The notes below the pieces were generated by a model, which saw only the letters and a program-made list of their open reading frames with translations, was not told the DNA's origin and did no database searches. This document shows, in pieces, positions 10,922 to 52,674 of a DNA stretch of 64,000 bases. Every line of letters begins with the position of its first letter. The stretch's first letter is position 1. Position numbers and translations under genes: made by a program. Source of the DNA: Lytechinus pictus (Eukaryota); contig NC_087251.1 in the NCBI RefSeq assembly GCF_037042905.1, forward strand, positions 38,380,001 to 38,444,000, in the 5' to 3' direction.

Positions 10922-13321
10922 CATCATCATCATTACTTCTACTACTATATCTGAAGAAGAAAAAAAGAATTAGGGTCAGGACCTTGGTCATATTCCATAA
11001 AAGTCCCATTGAGCAGTACAAGAGGGATGGTCGCTCGGTACATCCACTGCCATGGCTGTTGTTAAACCAACTAGACTTTCATTAATTTTTTTTTTTTTTT
11101 TTTCAGTCCAAGGCATGTTTGACCTGGTAAGGTTACCTGTCGAGCAGTACAAGAGAGATGGTCGCCTTGTGCGAGGTATCCAGAGAGGCGCCAACTCATT
11201 CGGTACATCCACTGCCATGGCTGTCGTAGAACTGACCAACCGGTTCGTCAAGCTCCTTCAGGTATGTCATTAATCACTGACTGTTGTTATAAGCTACTGA
11301 AATCCTTGCATCTGATTGGCTGAGAGCAAACTAGTCAATGAAAATCACAGACAAGAGACTTCCTGAAAAGCTCCCCTGTATTTACAATTTTTTCACCATT
11401 TTTTTTTGGGTAGTTCATGCTGTATTTTTCTTTATTTTATATTTTCAGTCATGCATATTTGTCATGTTTAAAATAAATCAGCAGTTTTAGTCCTCAAATG
11501 CCTCTGTACTATGGGGTAAAATTAATGTTATTTGTGCTTGTAATTTGGGGCAAAAATGTTGATCATTACTAGTCATTAATATTGACTTTATAACACATTA
11601 AACTAAAGGGTTCTCAAGGGAAAAGGAATAATATTAGTTTAACTTCCTTGTAATTCAAGAAAAAAATGTTTTTCATGACTGGTTATGAGTATTGCCCCAT
11701 TTTATGCATGAACGTCTTTTAAATATTTTATTAAATGACTCATTACATTGTGAATGTTTTGTTATGTATACTTTGAAATAGAAAGGATCAATAACAACAT
11801 TAAAAAAGGGATATTGAATATGTAAGATATCAAATTTATAGATTCGCTTACTGGACATGCATCACATGATGATAATATGGTCATGTTATTTCTGTAAAAT
11901 GGTGGCTGAGTGGTAGAGGCCACATGTTCGATCCTTGGCTGAGTCCTATTAAAGACTTCAAAAAGGACCTTCTGCCTTCTTGTTAGGCACTCTATTAGAA
12001 TAAAGAAATGCTGATAAAAACATTTTTATGATATGTAGCTTCATAAGATCTGAAGTGGTTATCCTGCGTAAATAAGAATTATTATTATCATTAATGTTTC
12101 ATTTTGTTTGTAATTTTGTTGATAGTGAAATCCAATCTATCCAATTGCAGCCTGCTTCAAGAAGCATTATGTTGATTTAGACTATAGAAAAAAAAGGACA
12201 TATTTGTTGCTTCTTGTTTTACAGGTTGCTGCTGAGACAGCCTATGATGTAGTGTCCCCTGGACCCAGTGTGTCTAGTCGAGCTATCACGTATGGTCCAT
12301 TCGGTCAGCAGAGATTAGCTAGACAACCAGCTGATTTTAGAGAAGGAATGGCTAATGCCATCAACGTGGTCAGAGAGGTACGGATAATTGCATTTTATTG
12401 TTTTTTATCTTTTTTTTTGCTTCAAAATCTGGATCATTTACATAGAAATGCTGTAAATTCTAAAAATAATATTCAGGTCATAACATGTTATTTAACATCA
12501 CCTTATGCTTTGAAAGGGCCTCAGCATATTATTGTCCTGGCATTAGCCAGGCTAGCCCTAATACAGCGCACATGCATTTCAAGGAATGTTTTCCTACCAG
12601 GTGGAGATAAGACCAACTGGACATAAGACTGAGTGGGTTTTAGACCAAGTGTAGTGTAGACTAAAGACCAATTAGACCCGATGACCCAAAGTCACAAAGA
12701 TGGTTTCCATTGTACCATGTTACAAAACCATGGACTATGCAGGTTTCGTGTACATAATTATGTGAATTTCATAGAATGCAATTGAAATTGTCCAGTTATA
12801 AAAGCTTTTGGTGTAAGGTACTTAATTCATGCACGGATGAAGCGTGTAGTACAAGAAGCGCAATTGAAGCGACCCTATTGAATTCAGACCATTGGGTTTT
12901 AGCCCATGTGCTATTAGCCTTATCTGTGAAGTAGATCAACTGACCATGTTATTTTAAACCAATGTGGTATTAGACTACTAGTATCTCAGAAATAGACCGA
13001 GTGAATATGATCTGATGTGGTATTAGACTAACTGAGAAATAAACCAACTGTTTGTAGATCAAGTGAATATAAACCATTTCCTCATTTCAGGGGTTGGGCG
13101 ATACGGCCACAGCCATCATGCAAACAGCATTGGAAGAGCACGAACACAAGGGCGTGTCCGGAGCAGTTGGGGGCATCCTGCGACAGATACCCCCCTCGGT
13201 CATACGCCCCCTCATCCTGGCAACAGAAGCAACGTCCAGCGTCCTGGGCGGGGTCAGGAATCAGATGTTACCTGATGCTCGGAAGGAGGATGCAGAGAAG
13301 TGGAGGTCAAAGGCAAAGTGA
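185..13321 (+). CDS. ATG2: Autophagy-related protein 2 (ATG2A/B-like), 3' part; 13 exons: 185-410, 739-778, 1343-1484, 1953-2120, 2792-2893, 4007-4076, 4807-4981, 5783-5852, 9254-9336, 10429-10550, 11107-11261, 12225-12377, 13091-13321 (5' exons lie upstream of the window)
   Basis: All introns are GT-AG with consistent phases (1737 nt, 578 aa + TGA). The spliced translation contains motifs I recognise from the ATG2 C-terminus: DIEVRDRLAQSQINKFLYLY, EECCLRISLQPLRFNIDQDALFFLRDFF, LDYEGKRVDMDQ, LGGVGPMHSFVQL, LPVEQYKRDGRLVRGIQRGANSFGTSTAMA, QPADFREG, LRQIPPSVIRPLILATEATSSVLGGVRNQMLPD. Confidence 0.96.
432..610. repeat. (ATTT/ATTC)n microsatellite
   Basis: Directly visible; a similar run lies at about 61950-62075. 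Confidence 0.9.
2375..2570. mobile_element. MITE with GG termini (Merlin-like)
   Basis: TIRs GGTTCCATGACATTTGCTCC / GGAGCAAATGTCGTGTCACC; 8-bp TSD AGTGAGAA / AGTGGGAA. Confidence 0.7.
3674..3974. mobile_element. Two abutting foldback MITEs with GGGCCC-type termini (Harbinger-like)
   Basis: Inverted arms TAGCACAAAGATTAGCGATTAATCGC / GCGATTAATCGCTAACCTTGTGCTA, then a second element at 3827-3974. Relatives of the first occur at about 47178-47310 and 51435-51565. Confidence 0.65.
5400..5660 (+). mobile_element. Probable Penelope-like retroelement 3'/pLTR remnant
   Basis: Pyrimidine-rich tract ending in the hammerhead-like motif; no ORF remains. Confidence 0.45.
5607..5645 (+). ncRNA. Minimal type I hammerhead-ribozyme-like motif (Penelope-type)
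   Basis: GCCT-CCGACGA-A-GATTCT-GCT-AGGATC-GAAA-GC-TT-AGGC gives stem I GCCT/AGGC, stem II GATTCT/AGGATC, core C(C)GACGA...GAAA, and palindromic AAGCTT in place of stem III. Confidence 0.55.
5948..9111. mobile_element. Non-autonomous DNA transposon with CAGGGTTCCCAGC TIRs, interrupted by a piggyBac-like element
   Basis: CAGGGTTCCCAGC ... GCTGGGAACCCTA, with repeated TCAGGGAA subterminal motifs at both ends; flanks AAGTAC / AAGTAT. Confidence 0.7.
6163..8919. mobile_element. piggyBac-like non-autonomous element (about 2.76 kb)
   Basis: TTAA|CTCTT ... AAGAG|TTAA. A near-palindromic subterminal repeat GGGCAACTATAGCTGCCAA is duplicated at the right end. No transposase ORF. Confidence 0.7.
9605..9845. 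mobile_element. Foldback MITE
   Basis: Arms TGTCACATCGTTCCGTGCAAGCCTTGCG / CGCAAGGCTTGCATGGAACGATGTGACA. Confidence 0.65.
10621..10930 (+). mobile_element. tRNA-derived SINE
   Basis: A-box-like GTGGTCGAGTGG, B-box-like GGTTGGAATC, body similar to the 27127 copy, and an (ATT)n/(TCA)n tail. Confidence 0.7.
11901..12092 (+). mobile_element. Degenerate tRNA-derived SINE
   Basis: GGTGGCTGAGTGGTAGAG and GTTCGATCC boxes, with an ATT tail. Confidence 0.55.
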
Positions 13322-13945
13322 TATACAGTATCTTGGGCCTGTTTCATGAAGAATTACAATTATTAAAACTTTTTATTCATGGTAAGTGCTACGGTAACAG
13401 GTCTCGGCCGCCAATCAGTATCTAAGGATGCATAGAAGTGAAGGCCAAAGGCAAAATGAATCCTGTAGGACCTGTTATCATCAAGAACTTACAATTAATG
13501 TTCCTTTTCATTAAAGGTAAATCCTATGGCAATGTGGACTCAGCAGCCAATTGAAACCAACGGATGCATAGAAGTGGAGGTTAAAGGCAAAGTGTTTTGT
13601 CTTTGGCCTGTTTCAAGAATAATTACAATTATTCATGGTAAGTCCTATGGTAACAGGGCTCAGCAGCCAATCAAAATCAGAGGGTGCTGAGAAATGGAGG
13701 TCAAAGGAAAAGTGATTTATTTTGGACCTGTTTCATGATGAACTCAACAATTATTGCAACATTTCATCAAGTCCTATGATAACAGGGCTCAGCAGCCAAT
13801 CAATACCAAGGCTAAGTGAATCCTCCAGGGCCTGTTTTCATGAATAACTTACAATTAATGCTTATATTCATTAATGAGAGGTGGAAATGAACTACAATCT
13901 TGATAAGTCAAAGTGTAACAGGGCTTAACAGCCAATTAAAATCAC
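13287..13945 (+). repeat. Tandem array (about 120-138 bp unit, 4 full and 1 partial copies) of the ATG2 CDS end plus a MITE arm
   Basis: Units begin at about 13287, 13425, 13561 and 13681, with a truncated unit near 13809. Each has GGATGCA.AGAAGTGGAGGTCAAAGGCAAAGTG followed by GGCCTGTTTCATGA...CAGCCAATCA. Confidence 0.85.
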
Positions 13946-15483: not shown

Positions 15484-15711
15484 GTGTTGATGTAACACCA
15501 GCCCGGAATCTATATATGTCCACACCAGAGAAGTGTTAAACAACACCAGCTTCGTTTTGGTGTAACACCAGAAAGGTGTTTATACAACACCAATTAGTAT
15601 TAAAACAGCATCGGTTTGGTTCCAAACTGGTGTTGTTTCAATACTTCTCTGGTGTGGACATATATAGATTCCGGGCTGGTGTTAAATCAACACCGGAGTT
15701 TTTGCAGTGTA
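15484..15711. mobile_element. Foldback element remnant with a CACTG-type terminus
   Basis: ACACCAGCCCGGAATCTATATATGTCCACACCAGAGAAG is inverted near 15643-15685; the element ends TTTTTGCAGTG|TA. Confidence 0.6.
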
Positions 15712-18053: not shown

Positions 18054-21000
18054 TTATTCATTGGTAGTTGCTTCAGAGTCTGTCTCTGAGACCTCTTGCC
18101 TGGTGTGTTCCATGTCAGATGGAGACAGTTTCACTATCTGGGAGTTTGATGAAGTAGCCATTGCTGAAGATGGAGCTTGTGATCCAGTCTGGATGTGCAA
18201 TGGCTTCTGAGGTGGTGGAAGCATAGGATACCAAGGGTTGCAGTATGGAATGGCTGGATGTGAGGGGTAAGGTCCTGTGCCGGGATGCTGAGGATGAATA
18301 CCTGGTGCAGGATAGTATCCAAGAGAGGACCAAGGGTGAATGAGGCCGGCATTCGGGAGTCCAGATGGCAGTGGATTACCGGTAGGCGGTGGGATGACAC
18401 CTTGCAGAGGATGCTCTATACCGGAAGACTTGCACCAAGGTGCGGTAGGTGCCTTTGATGCTTCTGTGGTTGATGGTGTCTTTGATGCTGAACCTGAAGA
18501 CAAAGGATTGTCTCTTTTGGCCAAAGGGTGTGGTGGTTGATTAGTATTGAAACCCATTGGATGGTACCAGTGACCCGGTGGTGGCATTGGTGGTGGCAAG
18601 AATCCCATGGTTGGTATACTTGATGGTGGTAGTGGTGGGTACAAGAAGCCTGATGGTACCTTAGATGGCATGGGCGGTGCCATAGAAGGTATCCCTGGTG
18701 CTACTATCGGTACACCTGGTACTGTTGGTAAACCTAATGGAGCTATGTAGCTGTGACCTGGCACTTGGTGTGGCCGTTGCATGTGAGAGAAGGTTCTCAA
18801 AGGTTCTGGCCAGTACTGAGGTGGTACCTGGTGTTTTGGTTCGGTCTCTGATGGCGATGTTCTTCCAGCCTTTGCTTCCTCCCTTTCTTGACGGAGTCTT
18901 CTTGACCGAAACCAACCCTGCATGTGAATAACAAGAGCAGAACATTAAGGAATAATAGAAATCAGAGACAGACTGGTAATTGTAAGAAGTGTATAGTCAA
19001 ATTCTAGATGCAAAACATCAAGAAGCTAATCTGAACTTCAGTCCCATGTTTTGTGAATTTCTGAATTTACACATTTATCCTACATTAAAACATGTCTTTG
19101 TGAATAATGAAATACATATTTCTATAAATACATTTCACTCTCTTCCCTCTTTGTAATATAGCTAACAACATATAGATATTACCTCAATTATTTATTGGCA
19201 AGCAGTGCTCTTTCAAATTTTTTTTAAATCTTCATCACAACAAAGGAAAAGGTTAAACATACCTCTGAAATAAAAGATTAAGAATTTACAAACGAATGGG
19301 ACCTGTTTCATGAAGACTTACTACTACAGTAAATTTTCTTCATTGTAACTTTTCCATTATTTTATCTGTCCTGGAGACTTTTATTTTGATTGGCTGCTGA
19401 GCCTTGTTACCATGGTAGTTGCCATATTAGCAAAGTTCTCACAGTTGTAACCCCTTAATGAAGCCGGCCCCTAAAAACTGTTTATCAGATGATGGAACTA
19501 TTCTTACCCGGATCTTCTTGCTGTCAAGCCCTGTAAGATGCACCAGTAGTTTCATGGTGGCTGTCCCAGGGTGATCCGAGATGTGGAAGGCCGCTTCCAG
19601 GAGGTCCCTTTCGCTCGATGTGAAACCCCTTCGGTGTGGCCTCGTTGGACACCCTGATGATGGTTCTTCAGAAGCTGCATTCCCTACGATGGGGGAGCCG
19701 TTTGTCTCGAGGTTGTAAGGCATGGTATGTGAGGCTTGGGTAGGGTTAGCAGGAAGATTTGCATCTAATGGATCCGAGCTGGCTCTTTTGTCTTCAGGTG
19801 AAGGGGTTTTAGGTGACAGTTCTTCGGATGATGCTGTTAATGATGATATAAATATTTGCTTCACATTAGTATGATCACTGGTGTATAGATAAGAGGGCAC
19901 TTCTGAATGTTATGTCAAAAACCTGTCACAAAATCAGATTTTCATTTCAAAAGGTCAAAAACTTTCACCTTTAGAAATTTGCCCCAAATGCCATTTTTAG
20001 CCCCTTCAATATTAGGGGCCCATTATAGTACTGGATATGATAATGTATAGGATACACTAAATCTTGTCAAATAAAGACATTTGCAAACTTCATCTACATG
20101 TGCATAAATTTATAGCAAGGGTGGATCCATGATTTATTAACCTTAAAAGGACTGGGGGGGGGGGGCCTTGACGCTTCGCGTAATATTTCTGAAACGCAAA
20201 AAGAAAGCGCTGCAAAATTTTTTGGCTTTTTTCTTTGTAGTCTCATGCGACTTTTGAGACCAAATTCGCGACATACAGGTATAGCATCACGACGTCACAT
20301 GACTTTTTACAAGACAATGTCATGCCGAAAATGGTTCATTTTTATACTTTGTGTACAAAGTCTATGGGAGAGGAAATTCATAAAAGGTTGATTATTTTTC
20401 GTTTTAATTGGTCTGCTTAATTAATTTAGGGTTTAATTTAGTTGTTAAATGGTCTGTAATAATCTCAATTGAAAAAAACAATGAAAAACAAAAGGTAAAA
20501 TCATAGAAATACATATAAGAATTTCTAAAAACTAAGAAATACATAATATAAGGAAAATATTGGCTTTCGCAATTTTTCTTTGAGTTGCTTGGTTAAATAC
20601 ATTTTTTTATTAAATATTCTTTATAAGGTCACTGATAAATTTAAAATAATGATAAGAGCAATTGCATGGTGATTCAAAGGCGTTTCTGAGCACAAACGGA
20701 GTCTGATTAACACAGTACATATACAACCTTTTTTAAGATAAAATACTAGATGCACTAGTACTTTGGTAAAGTGGATTTTCTTCACTTTAGTAGAGTTTCT
20801 AACCTAATCTGAAACACAACCCTTTGACAAAAAAAAAAGTTTATGAATGTGATAATATCAAAGATGTAATATCGATATTCTATTGTTGGATAATGTAGAT
20901 AGATTTAACATGATTCAATGTGGAGTATAACTAACAAAATTGCTAACCACCCGTGGAAAAATTGAAATTTTATCTTTCGAATGTCATGGGAACTGTTATG

Positions 21001-23349
21001 AGAGAGTATTTTCATTACAAACAAAAGTTTTAAATAAGGCTGACTGTGCCACGTATGTTTGTTTTTAGTAATGGAGAGATTTATTTTTTTTAAAGGGGGG
21101 AGACAAGAAGAGTAAAGTTTAAAGATAGTGTCTTGCTCGTGTGACTCGATTTACCCCTGTTCCTCAATTAAGAAGAAGAAAAAAGGATTGTCACCATTAG
21201 GCTACCCTGCCCCCCCCCCCCGTACCTTGGGGCCGCAATTTACCTATTTAATGAGGGTTTATTTATGGAGCCGATGATTTGATAAAGTACCATTCTTCAG
21301 CGGAAGGAAATCAAATGTGTAATTATTTTCAAAGTATGGTGATGAGCCTACTTTGTATGGCTCAATTAAATAAACCTTTTGTGGACAAACCAAATAACCT
21401 TAACAGGTCCCTTTCTTTTCGCCTTCTTTGTCCTCGCAACACCGTTTCCTGTGGGCTTAACTCCTAAAACACCTTGTACAGCCAGTACCTTTGTGTTATG
21501 GTGCAGATGGTTTATTTGCATAAATCGATATAACTCTCGCGTGTCAATATAGTAATACTCATGCTACCCGCATGTTAATTTTCTAAATTATTACATGTAT
21601 ATGAATTTAAGAACAACCGAGCTCCGTCTCTTGGTCACGGGCACCATTTCATGTGTCATTTCTATCCCGGAATTCCATCCATAAGTTTCCAACATGAATG
21701 AAAAATTGACCCAAATCGTTATTGGACAAACAAAAATCATTACGTTTTTCTCGATGTCCTCGCAATTAACTACATTGTATCTTAAACTTGAGTCTTTATT
21801 ATTTATACTCTACTATACATTCAATGATCGACCTATTGTGCTCTTTCAAGAAACAGCAATCGTAATTACATAAAGGCAGCCTAACACAAAGCATAACTCC
21901 ATGCAGACGACAAATAATGGTCATTAAACATTATTTCGGGAGAGAAATAAGACTTTGACAAAAAGTACAAATTTTTGCAGCTAAAACGGAAGGTAGACCT
22001 ATGAAGACAAGTATAATGCTCTTTTTTGCACCATCAATGCAGGACGATTCCTAGGTCGTTTTGTAGGCCTATGTCTTTCGTTTGAACTTTATGTGTATTT
22101 AATGTTTGACTCTTCACATTTCAAGTTTAATTTGAAAAAAAAAAGTTTCAATTCAATGATGATATTTGAAGAAAGGCGCCGATGTACAAAGACGGCGCGG
22201 GTCTTCCAAGAAGTTCCAAACAAAGGGCGGTGTCGTCGGCCTTTTTTTTTCGGAAAACGATAGCAAACGAAACATGAACCCTCTGTGACTATCTAAAGAG
22301 GTATTGTTTCGAATACATTTTTTATTAGGTTTTTTTTCTTCATATTTTACCCAAAGCTGGTACAAAGTGGTTCCAAGAAACTCTATTTTCAAAATTCCAA
22401 GTACACCCTCACAGGTTAAAAAAAAGCTTGACGAAATCTTTAAAAAGGGGGTTATGATCCAGAAAAAAATATAAGTTTGAAGAACTTCCTTTCCTATTTC
22501 GAGTGCATGCATGCATGCTCATGAAAATTACCCTTTTCTTCATAATCGCGAACATGTTTTTAAAATTAGGCAAATCATGTTCACAGTCACACCTCTGAAT
22601 ATCGGGTATGATTTTTCTAAAAACTGCTTACGGTGAACAATGAGTATATAGTATGAAATCGGATTCTTGTGAATATACTGAAATCAGTTCGTTTGCATTA
22701 AATAAACTTAATTATGAACTCCAAGAGAGAGAGAAAGGGGACACCATTCATGCATGTGAAAAATGATTTATCCAGGTTAAGTCTTGGCAATAATACTAAT
22801 GTGATTAAGCGGACAATTTGCTTTTTTTTACTGGGAAGGGGTCAAATCCCTCTGCTCTTCATCGAACCATAATTATATGGGAATCATTGAATCCCCACAA
22901 TTATACATAATGATAATAATGAAGAAGCTATGATTGTGCCTTAATATTTAACGACGTATACTTCCACATGTATTTTTTAAAAAAAGGGGGGAAAAAAAAA
23001 AGCAATATAATCATGCCGGAAAAAAAAAATCGTAGTACAATGATTTCTTACCATTTTGATCAAGTGGGGTATCCATCTTGTTAGACTCATCAGCATTTCT
23101 GTTCTTGAAGTTCTCTTCCTTGGAATCGATGGTTGGGGTGGAGAATGGCACTCCAACCCTGAATTCAGCAATCGCCCTTGCTAGCTCTCTCGGCGACATG
23201 ACGTTATCATCGTCAACCTCCTGATGGCGAAGCGGCGGGCTCTGATGTTTCGTTGTCGGCGATGATTTCGTCATCGAACTTTCTGCTGCAGCATCCGTAC
23301 GACTCGCGGATCGTGTCCGCATTCGATTCCTCATTACAACCGGCGGCAT
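18054..23349 (-). CDS. Divergent PRD-like homeobox protein, 495 aa; exons 23349-23052, 19833-19508, 18917-18054
   Basis: Three ORF segments join in phase through canonical sites (G|GTAAGA, AACAG|; CGG|GTAAGA, TGCAG|). The joined homeodomain TRPHRRGFTSSERDLLEAAFHISDHPGTATMKLLVHLTGLDSKKIR|GWFRSRRLRQERE keeps R5, F8, L16, F20, P26, L40, W48, F49, R52 and R53. It is followed by a long Pro-rich C-terminus. Linkage of exon 1 is less certain than that of exons 2-3. Confidence 0.85.
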
Positions 23350-30996: not shown

Positions 30997-31019
30997 ATGC
31001 CGATTCAGAAGGAGAAACG
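30997..31019 (+). CDS. First coding exon of an unidentified gene (MPIQKEKR...)
   Basis: AAAAATGC start context, strong donor CG|GTAAGT (phase 2), directly downstream of a CpG-rich promoter-like segment. Confidence 0.6.
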
Positions 31020-31598
31020 GTAAGTCAATTTTCGTATTATTCGCGAGTCACCTTCGCTTCTCTGGTATTATTCCTATGCGAGGCTATGCTACAATTGCTA
31101 TGTAAGCGGCTCCCCCTACATGCAAAGCCTTCATGCTGTGCATTGTCCTTGTAATAGGAGGGTAGACGTTTCGTGTCCTCGTAAGTTTATGCACTGTCGA
31201 TTGAAAGAGGTTCCGTCTGGCTATTACGTAAGAGTCCCGTTATGTATAATTGATCTCGAGAGCAGACATAACACAGACAAGGATATTGTCCCTGCAGGCA
31301 GAAAATAGCCACTCTCTCTCTCTTTTCTATGTCTATTTCTAACAGACCTCACCAACTTTTGTTTGTGTAGAGTTTGATCAAACATAGGCTATTTTCCAAT
31401 TTTCAATGAAATACACAGGATAATTATGAAATAATACCCTCCTTATTTTCTTTTTTTAGATTTGAGAAAAATCACCCAATTTAGATATTGAGGTATTGTT
31501 TTAATCTCAGTGATGTTCATAAGTGACTCTCCATTCGATGGGGATAATAAATTATTGATTGATCCAATTATTATTATTATCATTATTGTGATTAATTT

Positions 31599-32078
<480 letters not shown>

Positions 32079-35000
32079 TTTTATTACCATCATGATGACT
32101 TGAAAATCAAGTTCAATTGTCAATGAAATATGGACAAAGTTTCTTATCGATTATAGTTGCATGTACAATTTATGTGGAAATATGTTATATTCTCATGTAA
32201 AAACTGTAAGATTATATAATACTATGATAACGTAATGTACTGCTAATTTAATTCCTATTGGGCCTAAATCTAAGCAAATACATGTATGTGTTTCCTTATT
32301 ATTTTAGCCATTAATTCCATGTTTTCTTAAAAAGAAATCTGATACTGAACAGTTGAAATTGCAACACATCCTGAAACTTCCTTTCTGGAAAACTATACAA
32401 CTGTTTAACTTGTATACATTCCACAATAACTTATTAATCATTTATGTACAAGTCTACAGGTCAAACTTTAAATGACATTTTTATTTATTTTTTTAAATAT
32501 ATGTAGGCCTACTGCACTTACACTTGTATGAAATAGACTGTATGCCTATGCATTGATTTTGAATGATTGATATAAATAATATTGATGATGTTTTCAAATG
32601 TATTTACTATTGTGTGTGTGTGGGATTGTGGGTGAAATCATTCCCCTACAAAGAAGTACAATGTATGCGTGTGTAGGATGGTTATTTTTTAATCCCACCG
32701 CTGCCACCAGATGTTAGGGTTTTAGAAATATAAGTATATTTAGGAGTAAAAAATAGTTCTCAGCAGCAACTCAAATCCTCAATCAAGCATCAACCAAAAT
32801 GGAAAAGAAGTGACACTATAAGAAATGCAAATGAAATGATTTTGGGACCATAAAACAAAGCCTAGCAATCATTGCAAAACATTTTTAAAAACAATCAAGA
32901 AGCTGAAGAAGTCTGGTACTGCACTGATTTTTAATCTCATGGGTACTTTGCCCAGCTCAAATCTGAAGCGTAACAAAATGCATATAGGCCTATAAATTTG
33001 AATTTTCAACAACCCATCAAACTTTAATAAGAGAATGGAAGGCTGAATCTAAAATGTAGGAACCCCGTTCATAAGAGAAGCCAAATGAGAGAAGCCAATG
33101 AGAGTAAGAGAATGAAGATGATCAACAAGGCTTGGTAATTATGTAAGAGTAGAAATCAAGGAGTCAGGAGAGGTATGGAATGAGTGAAAACAGAAGGGAT
33201 GCAAACGCCAGAAGATAACCAGAGGAAAAGTATTCAGAGTGTAGAAGAATGACTAGCAACTGGAATACTGAATATCATTAAACTCATATTTCATAACCAG
33301 AGTTTAGATTGTAATTACAGTTCTGAAAAGAAATGCAAAGGAATAGTTTAGACAGTACAGAAACATATGACAGCTGGGGAAGAAATACAATAATTTAGAG
33401 GAAATAAACAACTAGGAATATTACAAAATAACCATGTGTAAGTCTTTATGTAGGAAACATACTGGTAGTACCATATTCCCTGCTAAAAATACAGTCTAAA
33501 TATCTTGTTTTAGAAAAAAAGTACAAGGCCTTCAGAGATTTTCCCATGTTTGTTATTAAATTGTTATAAAATGTAAAAGGCCTATAATGTTGGTGTATGT
33601 TCATGTACACGTATGTATATGTAGCAACTTGTCTTTTCAATATATGAAATAACATTTTTTTGCCAATGATACCATTATGTGGTCATTTTCAGTCTTTCAG
33701 AGAATTTTTTTTTTACACATTTTAATAAAGACATGAGTTTGATACATGAAGATGCCTTTAATATAAAAAGTATTTGGGATATATTTTTATTATAAACTTT
33801 CATTCATACAGCATTGAGATAACATATACGTAGGTGCACAAACAAAGTCATGATAATGTGAATAGTTTTCCTTGTTTTTGTAATTTGTGCAGAATTTATC
33901 TCTCTCTTCAAATAGGCCTATATCTATAACTGTATGTATTAATTCAACTATAGATGCTGAAATTACCCTGGTACTCAAACAAAAAACAAAAAACAAATTG
34001 CTAAAAGATGCATATTCTGAATATGGACAGGATGGTTTGAGCAGGAGGGACCATACGTGTACGCCTATTATAATATACACCATTGACTGTTCTGTTTCAA
34101 GTTAATGAAATCAGAAGTAGAATACAAAGTGTGCATCATTGTACATGTACTTTTACATACCTCTTTAAAAAAAGAAAAATGGCATATCTTTATAAAATGT
34201 TAAAACTAAATGTAGAATGTCAACTATGAAGCAAAAGATTTCAGAACACAAAAAGTAAGTTTCTCAGTATATGAGTGATTGACAGGGGTCAACATTATTG
34301 ATTGACCTTGTAAACTTGGGCCATGGAAGTATGGGGGGGGGGGAACCACATACTGAAATTGGTGCTCATGAAATGAATGGGATCTTTGTAAATCATGTTT
34401 ATCATTTTCACTTGAATGTTACATATATGCAATTACATGCAAGGTACTTTTTAATTCTGACACATAAACAAAATGACAAAGTAAAGTGGGCCCTGCATGT
34501 ACATTGCAGCAGGGAAAAATAAAACGGGGGCTCGGGGCAATTTTTGCCCCGAAATGCTCAAAAGAGTACTGGAAACTAAAAAAAATGGAGCCCTCGAAAA
34601 TCCTTGCGAATCATTGCAGTGTTATGGCTTATCCAATGTTGCAGATTGAGGTAGTAGGTGTGAAAAGGAGCCCCTGAAAATTGAAACTTTTTTTTGCCTA
34701 GAAATGTTTGGCCTACATGTAAATTTATATATTTAAGATTAGGAAGATGTTAACATTTGGAAATATAACTTAGAGAGAGTGAGAGGGTGAGAGGAGAGAA
34801 GAGCAAGGAAAAAGAGAGAGAATAGGGTGGGGGGAGGTGTTGAAATAAGGAACTTTCTCCATGAAGCCTACGTCTACATGAAGTCATTACTTTTGACATT
34901 TTCAAACTGATTTGGTGTTTGTTATGATATTTTAATGATTTTTGTTTTTGGTAACTAGTTATTACACTACATTAGGAATGTTTAGTGTGCTTTTGTTGAC

Positions 35001-41700: not shown

Positions 41701-44700
41701 GAAAGTGAATTGTGTAATTGCCAGAACACTGATACTACATGTACATCAAGTTCAAAGTGTCATACAGCCACACATCTCAAAACTGCCTTATTTTTTTAAT
41801 CATAGATTTTTTTTTAAAAGAAAGGGAATGGAAAATATAATGGTTCTTTCTTATTGCCTTTTAAGTTACTGTAAGTTCTACATAAAGTTCAATATTCATC
41901 GCACAATAAAACTTCATCTCAATACTGATTTTACTATCTTTTTATATAGACTTTAAAAGAAAGAAATGGAAGGTGAAATATACAATTCCCTTTTATTGTC
42001 ATTTATTAAAATCAAGTACATCAATTGGACAAAAGTGTCATACTACATCACTTCCTTCTTCTCGAAACTGCTGTCTTTTATTTGTTATCAACTTAGAAAT
42101 ATGAAATGATGAAAGTGATATTTGTACATGAAAACCTAACAATTTTTTTTCCACAATATTGAGAATTGTTTTCCTCAATGGTTTAAGAGAAAGTTTTGAT
42201 TATTTTTTAGTGATCATAGTGATATTAGGGCAGGATACATTACACTGAGGCTCAGGGCGATTTCCCCCCAAATTGTTTCAAAGATCGCTGGAAACTAAAA
42301 AAAGGAGCCCTGGAAGATCCCTTTTCATTCCAATGTTAAAGCTTATCCAATTTGCAGATTCAGGATATAGTTGCGAAAAGTAGCCCTAATGTTGGGAGCC
42401 GGGCCGGGCTAGAACTCGGAACCCGGCGAGTTGGGGGGATTTCCGCCGGGTCAAGCCGGTCCAGGTTGAGAGCTAAAACAGCAGAGATCGGAAGACATAA
42501 TATGTCTTGAGTTGCAAAAATATAATATATATAAAAAATACCAAATATACAGCAAGATAATGTAACTATTTACCTCCATGCTCGAACTGAGCTCATATTT
42601 ACTTCCAAATAATCTAACTTAATTGATTTTTAACATGAATTTCAGCCCCATCTAGCATCGGAAACAACCTTATTTTGTGTTTGATCATGATGTCTTCATT
42701 CAAATTCTTAGTCAAATAGCCCCCCCCCCCCCAAAAAAAAAAAAAAAAAAAAAACATTTTTTTTTTTTTGCCTGATTAGAGGGAAAGTACCCAAGTATAA
42801 AGTAATCAACACTTAAGTTGCATACCATTATCTTGTGTCATCAGCTGCTTGGACTTCAGTGTCATCTGGTGCAAATTATATTGCAGTTGTGAGAAATCAA
42901 TACAAATCAAAGCAAATCGCATAATTCCAATAATTGTGGTTGGTTTGTTTACCCTTCTTGTGGAACTCAACTTTCACACAGTAACACCTCAACAGATACA
43001 ATGAAAACAAAGAGACTAAAGGTTGGATTTATGTTGTTTTCAAAATTCTATTTTACAGTTCCTTTGTTGCCCCTATGATTATGTTTACAGAAGTGTTTGA
43101 CACGACTGGGCTCCACAATTATGATAATCTGCTTTCATATATCGCTTAATTAGATATCGAAACGATGTCTCTCCGCGCTTTACAGATATCTTTACCCAGT
43201 CATGTTATTGGAACATTCATAAAAAGTATTCATACTTGGCCATAATAGACAATAATCACTTTGCATGTATATTCCCAGTGTAAAAATATGATATATGATT
43301 AGATATTAAAGAGAAAATTTGACAAAAAATGAAAGAAAGAAAGAATAAAAAAAAAAAGAATATAAATCATGAAAACAGACCTATTTTTCCAAAGGGATCC
43401 TTACAAATATTTCGCCACAATTGAAACGCTGGTGTTACTGGTGATTAATCATAGTAATCATATCAGATCTTACCAGATCTTAGATATCAGATCTTACCAG
43501 ATTAGTCATGGCAATTGTATTGATTGTAGAAAAAAAACTGAATGGTTTAAAATTTTCGTGATCAGTTATGAAGGGCCAATCGTGGCGTCTGTAAGGGATC
43601 GTTCGATAGTGGGAAAGAAGTATTACAATATAATACCTTGTTCCATCGGTTGAGCAATCCCTTACTATTTTCTTGTTGTAAGCACTTTGGGCCATTTTAG
43701 GAAAAGTGCAGTATGAAGATATTGATGATGGTGATAATAATGATGATATGAAGATAATTATAATAATAATGATGTATTGTCATGGTTATTTACAAAGTGT
43801 GAAAATTGAAATGCACAGATTACAACAGGTGATGAACACGTACAATGTAAAATCACGGGCCTACATGTATGTAGCAGTATAGACCTGCCTGATTGTGGTG
43901 AAAGACAACAACACATAAAAGTACATGAAGAGAGCTCTGGAGATGGGAGGCCATAATCAATAACATTGTGTATGCATAGGAATTTCAGAATTTTGCAGAG
44001 GGCCTAGCTTCCGTGAAAAGCCATTTTCATCCGGGGCTGTTGTAGATGGGTTGATTGTAATGCATGCTCTGAGATGAAGCCGAGATTTACTCGAAAGTGG
44101 ATTATGTACCTCAGCCTGTCACGCATGTCAATAAGAAGATGGAGGGAGCGTTATGGAGAAATGCATCATCAAAGCACCTAGCTAGGACTGTCCTTTATGT
44201 ATTATTATATAAAAATATGGAGGTTTATGAAATTTATGATGATGTTGAAGAAAGGTAGCTGAGCCCAAAATGATACTTCCTTGGTTTTTATGCCTGTACA
44301 GTGTAGGATCTGCACTGTTAAAAACTGGGGTGCTAAAACTTACACTGGTTGGTGTCCCAAAAGGACCACACCTAGAGATTGAACATTACACCAAAGAGTG
44401 TAAAATTCATATCCAAAGGTGTAATAGCACTCATAGGTGTTGAACTAAAGTATAAAAAAGGTAAATAACAAAGTCCAATGATTGGAGTGGTCCTTCCACA
44501 TACACACTGATGGATATAATAGTTTTTTGTTGTTTACTAACTATAGAAGAATGTTTTGCGTATTTTGTTTGGGTATTAACATGATCAATAAAAGCAGAAA
44601 TTAATACAAAGAAAAACTAACTTTTTACTAATGGACAAGTTTGTGACATGAATTTGTTAATGCAGAGGAAAACAAAAAAATTAAGAAATTTCTTTTTTTT

Positions 44701-50912: not shown

Positions 50913-51372
50913 GGCCGTTCTCATTACGCTTTTTAAAACTAGTTTACTGGAAACCGATTCAGGAAACCACTTTGGAAGATCGCTTTGCTAGCGTTCCCAC
51001 TTGATTACACGAAAGTGGTTTTCAAAATCACTTCACGTAAAGCGCTCTTGTTGCTGTGGAAACGCTCTCAGTGGGGTGACACGTTTCGCGCGAAATTCGA
51101 AACCGCAGCATAGGCATTCTACACCTGTCGTGTGGAGTAGCGCGCTCAAAATGTGCGAAGATCGCTTCCCGAAGAACGGTTGTGTCCTCTCTTACGCTAA
51201 AACCAGTTTAACGAGGCAAAGCGATCTTGAAAACTACATCGCGAGGTGGTTTTCCAAACTGGTTTGGAAGATCGCTTCCAAGACCGCTTGGACCGTTCTC
51301 ACTACGCGTTAAACTAGTTTCCACTAAACTAGTTTCCAGTAAACTAGTTTTAGGAACGTAGTGAGAACAGCC
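50913..51372. mobile_element. Foldback MITE (Harbinger-like)
   Basis: GGCCGTTCTCATTACG..AAAACTAGTTTACTGGAAAC / GTTTCCAGTAAACTAGTTTT..CGTAGTGAGAACAGCC, with internal GAAGATCGCTT repeats. Confidence 0.8.
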
Positions 51373-52674
51373 TCAGTGATATCATGGTTTTAGCAGAAGC
51401 CATCCATGAGAGGATGCTATCCCAGCCAAACCAGGGGCCTATTACACAAAGCTTAGCAATTATCGTAGAACATTTTTCTACGATTGATTGCATTGACCAC
51501 AATGTACAATCCATCATGAAAATCAAGCGTACGATTAATTGCTAACCGTTGTGTGACAGAGCCCAGGACAATTTACTACTCAGCAGGAGTTTAGCACAGC
51601 CCTGTATACCATAGCCATGTTCTTGTACGACCTCTTTCTCCAGATCGAAACTGACAGATCTACTGATTATGTTAAACCAAGAAAAAAATACATAAAACCA
51701 TGAATTTGTTTTGTGTTTCTGGGTTGAAATCATTTCCCAATTCACTGGGGTTTTATGACAAAGAAAAGGTGTAATGCAATGACGTTAAGGCAGTGTTTCT
51801 AGTGAGTTTTAGGTGTGACGCCATGCAGATTAGGTTTCGAGTCCTGACACAATTCTGTGATGAGGCATTGTAGCTAACCTCATTTTGCTAGCCGCCATTT
51901 CATCTTTGTTATTGATATTGACTGTGAATGTATGTAAAATCTCTTCTTTCTGTGGATGACACAATTCAAATAAAGTTATGGTTCTTTCGATTGTACTCAT
52001 TTCAAGGGGAGGGGAAACTTATTGTTCTTATATTTCTTTAGGCATGTTGGTATTTAATTTGATACAGTTTTGTTCACAAAGTAGTAGCAGTATAAATAAT
52101 GATATAAAAAGCTGGATTAATATATTTTTCTATCCAGAGGGTACATGTACATAACACAAACAATTACCCCAGGGGCTTTACATACATGTCCATACATGTA
52201 GCTTGAACTGCTGCGCTTTATTATGGCACTCATATTCAGTAGTGGCATTTGAAATGATTTGAATATCCTGATAATAAAATAACAATGATTTGAAATTTAC
52301 TTGCATTTTAATTTGGAATAATATTCCTGAGAGAGATAGGGCGCGTCTCACACAGAGGTACAATTGATCCAATCAATCATAACTCTATGGATATCCATCA
52401 GTGTCATTTTTTTTTTCTACAGGAAATTTGCAAAATGCCCTTTGTAAACAAAGGGGAAAACTCCAAATTGTCAAGAAAACGATGAATTTATGAATATACA
52501 TCATAATTAGAAAATATTTTGAACAAACATGCATTTTAGATGGCTGGCTTTCCATAGTTGTGATTGATTGGATCAGTCGCAACTCTTTGTAAGACATGGA
52601 CCTGACTTGAATTTATATTCATCCTTTTGCCTCAGTCACACCTGCGAAATCGACCCCAATCCCAATAATGTTAA

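What the first reader, a model, noticed from the sequence alone, without database searches (positions are those of the whole stretch)
18054..23349. Intact but highly divergent, apparently lineage-specific homeobox gene tail-to-tail with ATG2
Seen: three exons splice in frame into an uninterrupted 495-aa ORF. The homeodomain is split by a phase-0 intron between residues 46 and 47, and the C-terminus is a Pro/Gly/aromatic-rich region of about 270 aa (PPQYWP, PPGHWYHP, NPWYP). Established: the 46/47 intron is characteristic of PRD-class homeobox genes, a class that repeatedly spawns fast-evolving early-embryo genes (echinoderm pmar1/micro1/phb, mammalian ETCHbox/Rhox). Inference: I cannot assign it to any named family from memory, so it may be an undescribed lineage-specific transcription regulator. 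The ORF track misses it because the domain is split.
Basis: partly seen in the sequence, partly recalled or inferred. Interest (0 to 1): 0.82.

Follow-up and report, generated by a model that had tools for sequence, protein, structure and literature searches.

The report
Urchin homeobox gene lacking DNA-reading asparagine
Three sea-urchin species share a real, spliced, transcribed homeobox gene that matches no named family we could compare and has lost the amino acid these proteins normally use to read DNA, so it likely works as a partner of other regulators rather than as an ordinary DNA-reading switch.

Summary
The gene is real. Three minus-strand exons (23349-23052, 19833-19508, 18917-18054) splice GT-AG into 495 aa. 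That protein is identical to the unnamed RefSeq model Lytechinus pictus LOC129264461, and both junctions appear in RNA-type runs. Orthologues turned up only in L. variegatus (91%) and Strongylocentrotus purpuratus (62%). A profile search of 1.84 billion proteins gave no other homeodomain above 26/60 identity. The homeodomain passes Pfam, folds normally, has the 46/47 intron and best matches PRD-class proteins (about 30-35%). It is conserved (51/60 versus S. purpuratus; rough dN/dS 0.3-0.4), so it is not a pseudogene. Best reading (inferred): a PRD-derived nuclear cofactor that no longer reads TAAT, working like HOPX, with a proline-rich effector tail. It fails HOPX and pmar1 membership on gene and protein architecture. 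An early-embryo role, ATG2 synteny and absence from other echinoderms were not tested. Verdict: new lineage-restricted variant of a known kind; interest 0.45.

The parts
23052..23349 (-). Coding exon 1 (Met1-Asn99, phase-1 end)
   Evidence: junction in X1 contig
23155..23193 (-). Conserved amphipathic helix, residues 53-65 (block 49-66: 18/18 in both other Lytechinus proteins, 14/18 in S. purpuratus); not an eh1 match
19834..23051 (-). Intron 1, 3,218 nt, GT-AG
19508..19833 (-). Coding exon 2 (Ser/Pro/Thr-rich linker and homeodomain positions 1-46)
19508..19645 (-). Homeobox positions 1-46 (N-terminal arm with R5, helices 1 and 2, start of helix 3)
18918..19507 (-). Intron 2, 590 nt, phase 0, between homeodomain codons 46 and 47; holds a piece of a high-copy repeat at about 19378-19437
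18876..18917 (-). Homeobox positions 47-60: recognition helix G47 W48 F49 R50 S51 R52 R53 (T51 in S. purpuratus)
18795..18836 (-). Post-homeodomain block, residues 236-249, identical in all four proteins; contains one PPxY match
18054..18917 (-). Coding exon 3 with proline-rich, low-charge, predicted-disordered tail and stop codon
17957..17962 (-). Nearest AATAAA after the stop (candidate polyadenylation signal; contigs of X2 and X5 run past it to about 17675, so the 3' end is not fixed)
13091..13321 (+). Last coding exon of the convergent neighbour ATG2

Best explanation
This is a spliced, transcribed, conserved sea-urchin homeobox gene, likely derived from a PRD-class gene, whose homeodomain lacks Asn51 and is therefore predicted not to read the usual TAAT site; it likely acts in the nucleus as a cofactor brought to chromatin by partner proteins. 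Shown: gene structure, splicing, orthologues in two more urchins, conservation of the homeodomain, residues G47/R50/S-or-T51. Predicted: a normal three-helix fold, one extra N-terminal helix, the rest disordered. Inferred: R5, R52, R53 and R55 give weak, backbone-type DNA contact; the invariant hydrophobic helix 2 (residues 28-38, M31-K32-L33 where PRD proteins mostly have R-E-E) and the N-terminal amphipathic helix bind partners; the proline-rich tail with conserved aromatic residues is the effector region, more likely activating than Groucho-recruiting because no eh1 or terminal WRPW match exists.
For: Splice and identity to RefSeq. Junction reads; over the exon bins raw first mates lie on the + strand, opposite to ATG2's, which fits a minus-strand RNA if the library is of the usual stranded type. 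Homeodomain 51/60 identical to S. purpuratus against 241/435 elsewhere, Fisher p 5e-6. Rough dN/dS 0.36 from 19 listed coding differences in run X5 (10 replacement, 9 silent, p 0.024) and 0.28 from 3 of 6 listed exonic contig pieces. AlphaFold helices 172-184, 190-200, 204-225 at pLDDT about 90 and rmsd 0.8-1.1 A to Antennapedia and Aristaless. Best solved-structure matches are PRD class: DUX4 26.7, GSC 24.9, Paired 24.2, PITX2 23.3 bits per domain. [quoted passage not shown] Among 182 non-self homeodomains from the search, 138 have N51 and 0 have R50 with S/T51. Arg at 25/31-type backbone positions matters for affinity (PMC11006913 passages) and here they are H/N25 and M31. HOPX is the precedent for a folded, non-binding PRD-type homeodomain acting through partners (PMC9179269).
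Against: No binding, localisation or partner data exist. R5, R52, R53 and R55 are conserved and the domain is still net basic (+5 and +4 against a median +8 in 43 near-complete comparison domains), which fits real DNA binding with a new specificity just as well. 44 of 182 comparison homeodomains also lack N51 (a set biased towards divergent ones). The PPxY match is no more than chance (35% of shuffled tails). The tree gave no supported placement. Read counts are tiny, and run X22 showed no exon coverage.
Confidence: 0.45

Rival explanations
1. It is a true sequence-specific transcription factor that has switched to a new, non-TAAT site read by R46, R50, S/T51 and R53.
For: R5, W48, F49, R50, R52, R53, R55 are conserved between Lytechinus and Strongylocentrotus; fold intact; proline-rich tail typical of activators (recalled knowledge).
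Against: Loss of N51 together with G47, M31 and H/N25 removes both base and backbone contacts; positions 51 and 54 differ between the two genera, which is unexpected for residues that set specificity.
Confidence: 0.33
2. It is a strongly diverged offshoot of the echinoderm pmar1/phb radiation, or of another nearby PRD gene such as Otx or Gsc, acting in early embryo specification.
For: pmar1/phb is a fast-evolving paired-like group in these animals (PMC4709884). The codons at 46, 47 and 50 (CGG, GGT, CGG) are each one base from the PRD-typical Q, V and Q (inference from the genetic code).
Against: pmar1/hbox12 genes have two exons, occur as tandem multi-copy arrays and carry two eh1 motifs and Q50. 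This gene has three coding exons, one copy in the 64-kb window, no paralogue among database hits, no eh1 match and R50. No pmar1/phb protein was recognised among the 20 hits whose names were looked up.
Confidence: 0.15
3. It is the echinoid orthologue of HOPX that has gained long flanks.
For: Compared by eye with human HOPX it shares unusual residues G7, H25, a hydrophobic residue at 31, L33 and a non-Asn 51, plus the 46/47 intron.
Against: About 15/60 identity by eye, below about 18-20/60 for GSC, PROP1 and Paired. HMMER gives HOPX 13.7 bits, E 0.24, rank 44 of 60 shown. No one-residue insertion between helices 1 and 2; R5 and R53 kept; 495 aa rather than 73.
Confidence: 0.06
4. It is a transcribed, decaying pseudogene.
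For: Loss of N51 raised this suspicion for human SEBOX; two L. pictus versions differ at 25 of 495 residues; expression is low.
Against: Open frame in three species; homeodomain far more conserved than the rest (p 5e-6); silent excess; both introns spliced.
Confidence: 0.02

Closest known systems
RefSeq models L. pictus LOC129264461 (XP_054758317.2), L. variegatus 'homeobox protein ESX1-like' (XP_041468211.1), S. purpuratus 'formin-like protein 14' (XP_011664857.1; UniRef A0A7M7HJM0)
   Same: The same gene and its orthologues: 100%, 91% and 62% identity.
   Different: Names are automatic and disagree with each other; none of five accessions occurs in the paper library's main texts.
PRD-class, non-PAX homeodomains (DUX4, GSC, Paired, PITX2, Aristaless, PROP1)
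   Same: Best sequence matches, 46/47 intron, L16, F20, P26, W48, F49, R5, R53; same fold.
   Different: Only about 30-35% identity; G47, R50, S/T51, M31, H/N25; no paired domain, no eh1 match.
HOPX
   Same: PRD-type homeodomain without N51, 46/47 intron, several shared odd residues; proposed mode of action through partners.
   Different: HOPX is 73 aa, has a one-residue insertion and lacks R5 and R53; weak sequence match.
Echinoid pmar1/micro1/hbox12 and phb
   Same: Fast-evolving, lineage-restricted paired-like homeobox genes of echinoderms.
   Different: Two exons, tandem arrays, eh1 motifs, Q50 versus three exons, apparently single copy, no eh1, R50.
Lineage-restricted homeobox orphans (Lopx and PRD clades I-VII in spiralians; ARGFX, LEUTX, DPRX, TPRX in mammals)
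   Same: Same evolutionary pattern: divergent PRD-like family confined to one lineage. ARGFX also has R50.
   Different: ARGFX, LEUTX, DPRX and TPRX keep N51; no orthology is implied.

Membership tests
Homeodomain superfamily | PF00046 above the curated cut-off | tested here: met
   30.7 bits against 22.9, E 2.9e-7; 4 of 4 proteins pass
Homeodomain superfamily | Three-helix fold with L16, F20, W48, F49 core | tested here: met
   Predicted model, pLDDT above 90 in the helices; Z about 10 to solved homeodomains; residues
Canonical TAAT-binding homeodomain | Asn51 | tested here: not met
   S51 in three Lytechinus proteins, T51 in S. purpuratus; role from PMC3460184
PRD class | Intron between codons 46 and 47 | tested here: met
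   criterion from PMC2211742, where it is common in the class, not exclusive proof
PRD class | Highest similarity to PRD-class homeodomains | tested here: met
   Top 12 rows are DUX4, GSC, Paired, PITX, OTX2, Aristaless; margins over ANTP, ZF and LIM class are only a few bits
PRD class | Residues shared across human PRD homeodomains (L16, F20, P26, W48, F49 as read by eye from the supplement alignment) | tested here: met
   the paper's own shading was not visible in the text copy
PRD class | Phylogenetic placement inside the class | tested here: inconclusive
   FastTree on 63 homeodomains from the search: nearest non-urchin 1.58 substitutions/site, supports 0.3-0.75, no curated reference set
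PAX subclass | Paired domain | tested here: not met
   No Pfam paired-domain hit in 4 of 4 proteins
Hopx family | Homeodomain-only protein of about 73 aa | tested here: not met
   495-517 aa
Hopx family | One-residue insertion between helices 1 and 2 | tested here: not met
   Ungapped fit to PF00046 1-55 and to PRD chains
Hopx family | No DNA binding | not testable with these tools
   Needs a binding assay
pmar1/micro1/hbox12 | Two exons, tandem multi-copy array | tested here: not met
   Three coding exons; one copy in the window; whole genome not held
pmar1/micro1/hbox12 | Two eh1 motifs and Q50 | tested here: not met
   No eh1 pattern match in 4 of 4 proteins, pattern recalled; R50; criteria from PMC4709884
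pmar1/phb clade | Monophyly with Pmar1/Phb homeodomains | not tested
TALE class | Three-residue loop extension | tested here: not met
   60-residue domain without insertion
CERS class (R50) | Transmembrane TLC domain | tested here: not met
   No such Pfam hit; class definition in PMC4901127

The most novel reading that the evidence does not exclude
An undescribed sea-urchin-specific homeobox family, overlooked in a heavily mapped developmental gene network, that independently of HOPX turned a PRD-type homeodomain into a non-TAAT-reading cofactor (or a reader of a wholly new DNA site) and is needed in early development or the germ line.
Probability: 0.25. Interest if true: 0.75.

Novelty: new variant of a known kind. 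Interest (0 to 1): 0.45.

Why it matters
Sea urchins are the reference system for developmental gene networks, so a conserved homeodomain regulator without a family name is a possible gap in the parts list. The protein is also a natural test of what a homeodomain does without Asn51 while keeping Arg5 and Arg53: either a second origin of HOPX-like cofactor behaviour or a new DNA-recognition code. Both can be tested cheaply in a genetically tractable urchin. The interest is capped because lineage-restricted PRD-like orphans are common in animals, the gene model is already public, and nothing here shows a developmental role.

Tried and rejected
Whole-genome searches: no genome is held, so copy number and synteny are open. 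Word-based protein searches with exon 3, residues 150-260, and the four-protein alignment against shorter proteins: 2 of 586, 2 of 141 and 0 of 1,448 candidates, only the two urchin clusters; proteins longer than 867 aa were not covered by these three. Profile search of 1.84 billion representatives: 202 hits at E<=0.001, best 150 examined; high ranks come from multi-homeodomain proteins summing scores; best non-self single domain 38.7 bits against 140-146 for orthologues; none carries the N-terminal or post-homeodomain block. That library hides relatives above 50% identity inside one cluster, and whether it holds cidaroid, diadematid or sea-star proteomes was not checked. P0071 (unnamed two-homeodomain protein, 42% over 52 columns, also S51) and P0099 (26/60, N51): rejected as orthologues, no shared flanks. 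ESM Atlas: generic homeodomain clusters below 0.9; nothing for residues 30-100. Metagenome scan with the profile and viral scan with P0099: nothing. IQ-TREE timed out; FastTree was uninformative. PPxY: chance level. No RNA holder is on record as RNA in the run index; X1-X16 are guessed RNA. A count of 11 replacement and 8 silent rows was my miscount, corrected to 10 and 9. No complex prediction was sent: no candidate partner. Literature: searches found no description of this gene; supplements searched (1 file; 12 of 27 files) had no match. The 2006 S. purpuratus homeobox inventory (cited, not read) and the P. lividus genome paper (not held) could list it under another id.
Full report
Observation. 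The product is identical to stored protein P0001, which is RefSeq XP_054758317.2, 'uncharacterized protein LOC129264461' of Lytechinus pictus. Pfam PF00046 matches residues 164-218 at 30.7 bits, above its cut-off; exon 2 alone stays below it, which explains why an ORF track misses the domain. Counting T163 as position 1, intron 2 lies between R46 and G47. The neighbour is ATG2: its last exon at 13091-13321 on the plus strand hits ATG2_CAD at E 1.4e-17, and the two stop codons are 4,732 bp apart.

Expression. Twenty of 23 listed runs hold all or part of exon 3, from two organisms and six studies; none of these holders is on record as RNA. I laid 7 of the 23. A contig of X1 skips exactly intron 1. 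Intron 2 is skipped in 1 raw read of X21, 2 of X23 and contigs of X2 and X5. In the RNA runs X21 and X23, first mates over the exon bins lie on the plus strand, whereas over ATG2 exons they lie on the minus strand, which fits convergent transcription if the libraries are of the usual stranded type. Depth is 0-6 reads in about 6% of each run, and X22 showed none over the exons. Stage and tissue are not given, so the early-embryo idea is untested.

Relatives. Orthologues are L. variegatus XP_041468211.1 (452/495 identical), an earlier L. pictus version (470/495) and S. purpuratus XP_011664857.1 (292/495). Three word-based searches of 5.8 billion proteins found only these clusters (2 of 586, 2 of 141, 0 of 1,448 candidates). 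An unindexed HMMER search of 1.84 billion representatives with a homeodomain-centred profile gave 202 hits; I examined the best 150. Scored per domain, the best non-self match was 38.7 bits against 140-146 for orthologues, the best identity was 26/60, and none had the two flanking blocks. Of 20 hits looked up by name, the named ones were fish dharma, lemur DUXB, sturgeon Sebox/Mix, and fish, frog, nematode, wasp and fungal proteins; the rest had no informative name. So the family is seen only in three camarodont urchins, with the caveat that coverage of other echinoderm proteomes in these libraries was not checked.

Selection. The homeodomain is 51/60 identical between Lytechinus and Strongylocentrotus against 241/435 elsewhere (Fisher p 5e-6), and 59/60 within Lytechinus. 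Two further blocks are conserved: residues 49-66 (14/18) and 223-262 (31/40). For run X5, whose replacements match the L. variegatus protein, 19 coding differences were among the 40 of 128 rows shown: 10 replacement and 9 silent, dN/dS about 0.36, p 0.024. Three non-overlapping contig pieces of six gave about 0.28, and the piece covering most of the homeobox about 0.10, taking replacements from P0003 as a stand-in. These are rough counts, not codon-model estimates, but they exclude free decay.

Anatomy. AlphaFold predicts the three homeodomain helices with high confidence, one lower-confidence helix at 53-65 and disorder elsewhere. Foldseek gave no match at E<=0.001 but ranks homeodomains throughout, with rmsd about 1 A to Aristaless and Antennapedia; VIA-align gives Z about 10 with all classes tied, so the fold does not set the class. 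By sequence the best solved relatives are PRD class: DUX4, GSC, Paired, PITX2, OTX2, Aristaless. The core L16, F20, P26, W48, F49 and the arginines R5, R52, R53, R55 are present. The recognition positions are not canonical: G47, R50, S51 (T51 in S. purpuratus), L/I54, with H/N25 and M31. [quoted passage not shown] Even among 182 non-self domains picked for likeness to this one, 138 have N51, 4 have G47 and none has R50 with S/T51. Helix 2 (positions 28-38) is invariant across the four proteins and hydrophobic where human PRD proteins are mostly charged. The tail (263-450) has 51 Pro, 3 acidic and 7 basic residues in 188; 15 of 18 aromatic residues in 223-450 are identical in S. purpuratus against 80 of 151 other non-Pro residues. 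No eh1, terminal WRPW, PxDLS or hexapeptide pattern matched (patterns recalled); one PPxY is conserved but at chance level.

How it most likely works. Shown: a spliced, conserved, PRD-like homeobox gene without N51. Inferred: the domain keeps weak backbone and minor-groove contact but cannot make the adenine contact that defines TAAT binding, so the protein is placed on chromatin by partners, through helix 2 and the amphipathic N-terminal helix, and acts through its proline-rich tail (0.45). The close rival is a true factor with a new DNA site (0.33); the conserved arginines fit it, while the change at 51 and 54 between genera does not. Origin from the pmar1/phb group or a neighbouring PRD gene with an early-embryo role (0.15), HOPX orthology (0.06) and pseudogene (0.02) follow. 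The codons at 46, 47 and 50 are each one base from Q, V and Q, consistent with a Q50 PRD-like ancestor; this is an inference only.

Comparison with known families. It works like HOPX on the best reading, but is not a member: wrong length, no helix 1-2 insertion, R5 and R53 kept, and a weak match (13.7 bits; about 15/60 by eye against about 18-20/60 for GSC, PROP1 and Paired). It is not a pmar1/hbox12 gene by structure: those have two exons, tandem copies, eh1 motifs and Q50 (PMC5370098 and PMC4709884, passages). PRD-class membership meets three of the criteria used in PMC2211742 (similarity, shared residues, 46/47 intron; passages and supplement 6 parts 1-3); the tree test was inconclusive and lacked Pmar1/Phb sequences. 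Lineage-restricted PRD-like orphans are well known (PMC6118893, passages).

Papers seen. Passages only: PMC2211742 (plus supplement 6, parts 1-3 of 4), PMC4901127, PMC5370098, PMC4709884, PMC11310086, PMC11006913, PMC9179269, PMC3460184, PMC6258689, PMC6118893, PMC12550998. Supplement search only: PMC12189403, PMC5638244 (12 of 27 files). No description of this gene was found in searches. The library lacks most subscription papers; the 2006 S. purpuratus homeobox survey and the P. lividus genome paper were not read and may list it under another identifier.

Verdict. Observation confirmed; interpretation partly supported. A real, publicly modelled but apparently unstudied urchin homeobox gene with an atypical recognition helix: a new variant of a known kind, interest 0.45.

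Noticed in passing
window 13287-13944 (+): The ATG2 stop codon lies in the first unit of a 120-136-bp tandem repeat (3.5-5 copies, about 70-77% matches). Four units carry a copy of the last ATG2 codons joined to part of a dispersed repeat.
   Followed up: partly
window 19378-19437: Intron 2 holds a short piece of a very high-copy, partly palindromic dispersed element, 85% like the ATG2 3' repeat; it draws hundreds of RNA reads from elsewhere.
   Followed up: partly
window 15484-15693: MITE-like element: 57-nt arms, 95% complementary, high copy in the laid runs.
   Followed up: no
window about 31000-51542 (+): Probable further gene, head-to-head with the homeobox gene: candidate first exon near 31000 and coding-like frames at 42340-42507 and 51354-51542; no Pfam hit, no PDB hit for the last.
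   Followed up: partly
P0001 versus P0004: Two versions of the same L. pictus RefSeq accession differ at 25 of 495 residues, only 1 in the homeodomain; run X1 shows a further replacement in the N-terminal arm (position 4).
   Followed up: partly
P0071, P0052, P0152: Unnamed small two-homeodomain proteins from short contigs: a first domain with a TALE-like loop and a second with a one-residue insertion; two of three lack N51 in the second domain.
   Followed up: partly
P0099, P0078, P0128: Unnamed homeodomain proteins called on metagenome-type contigs (up to 90 kb) are among the nearest single-domain matches; source organism or virus unknown; no viral contig matched P0099.
   Followed up: partly
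window 31592-32095: Long (CTA)n simple repeat giving spurious ORFs on both strands.
   Followed up: no
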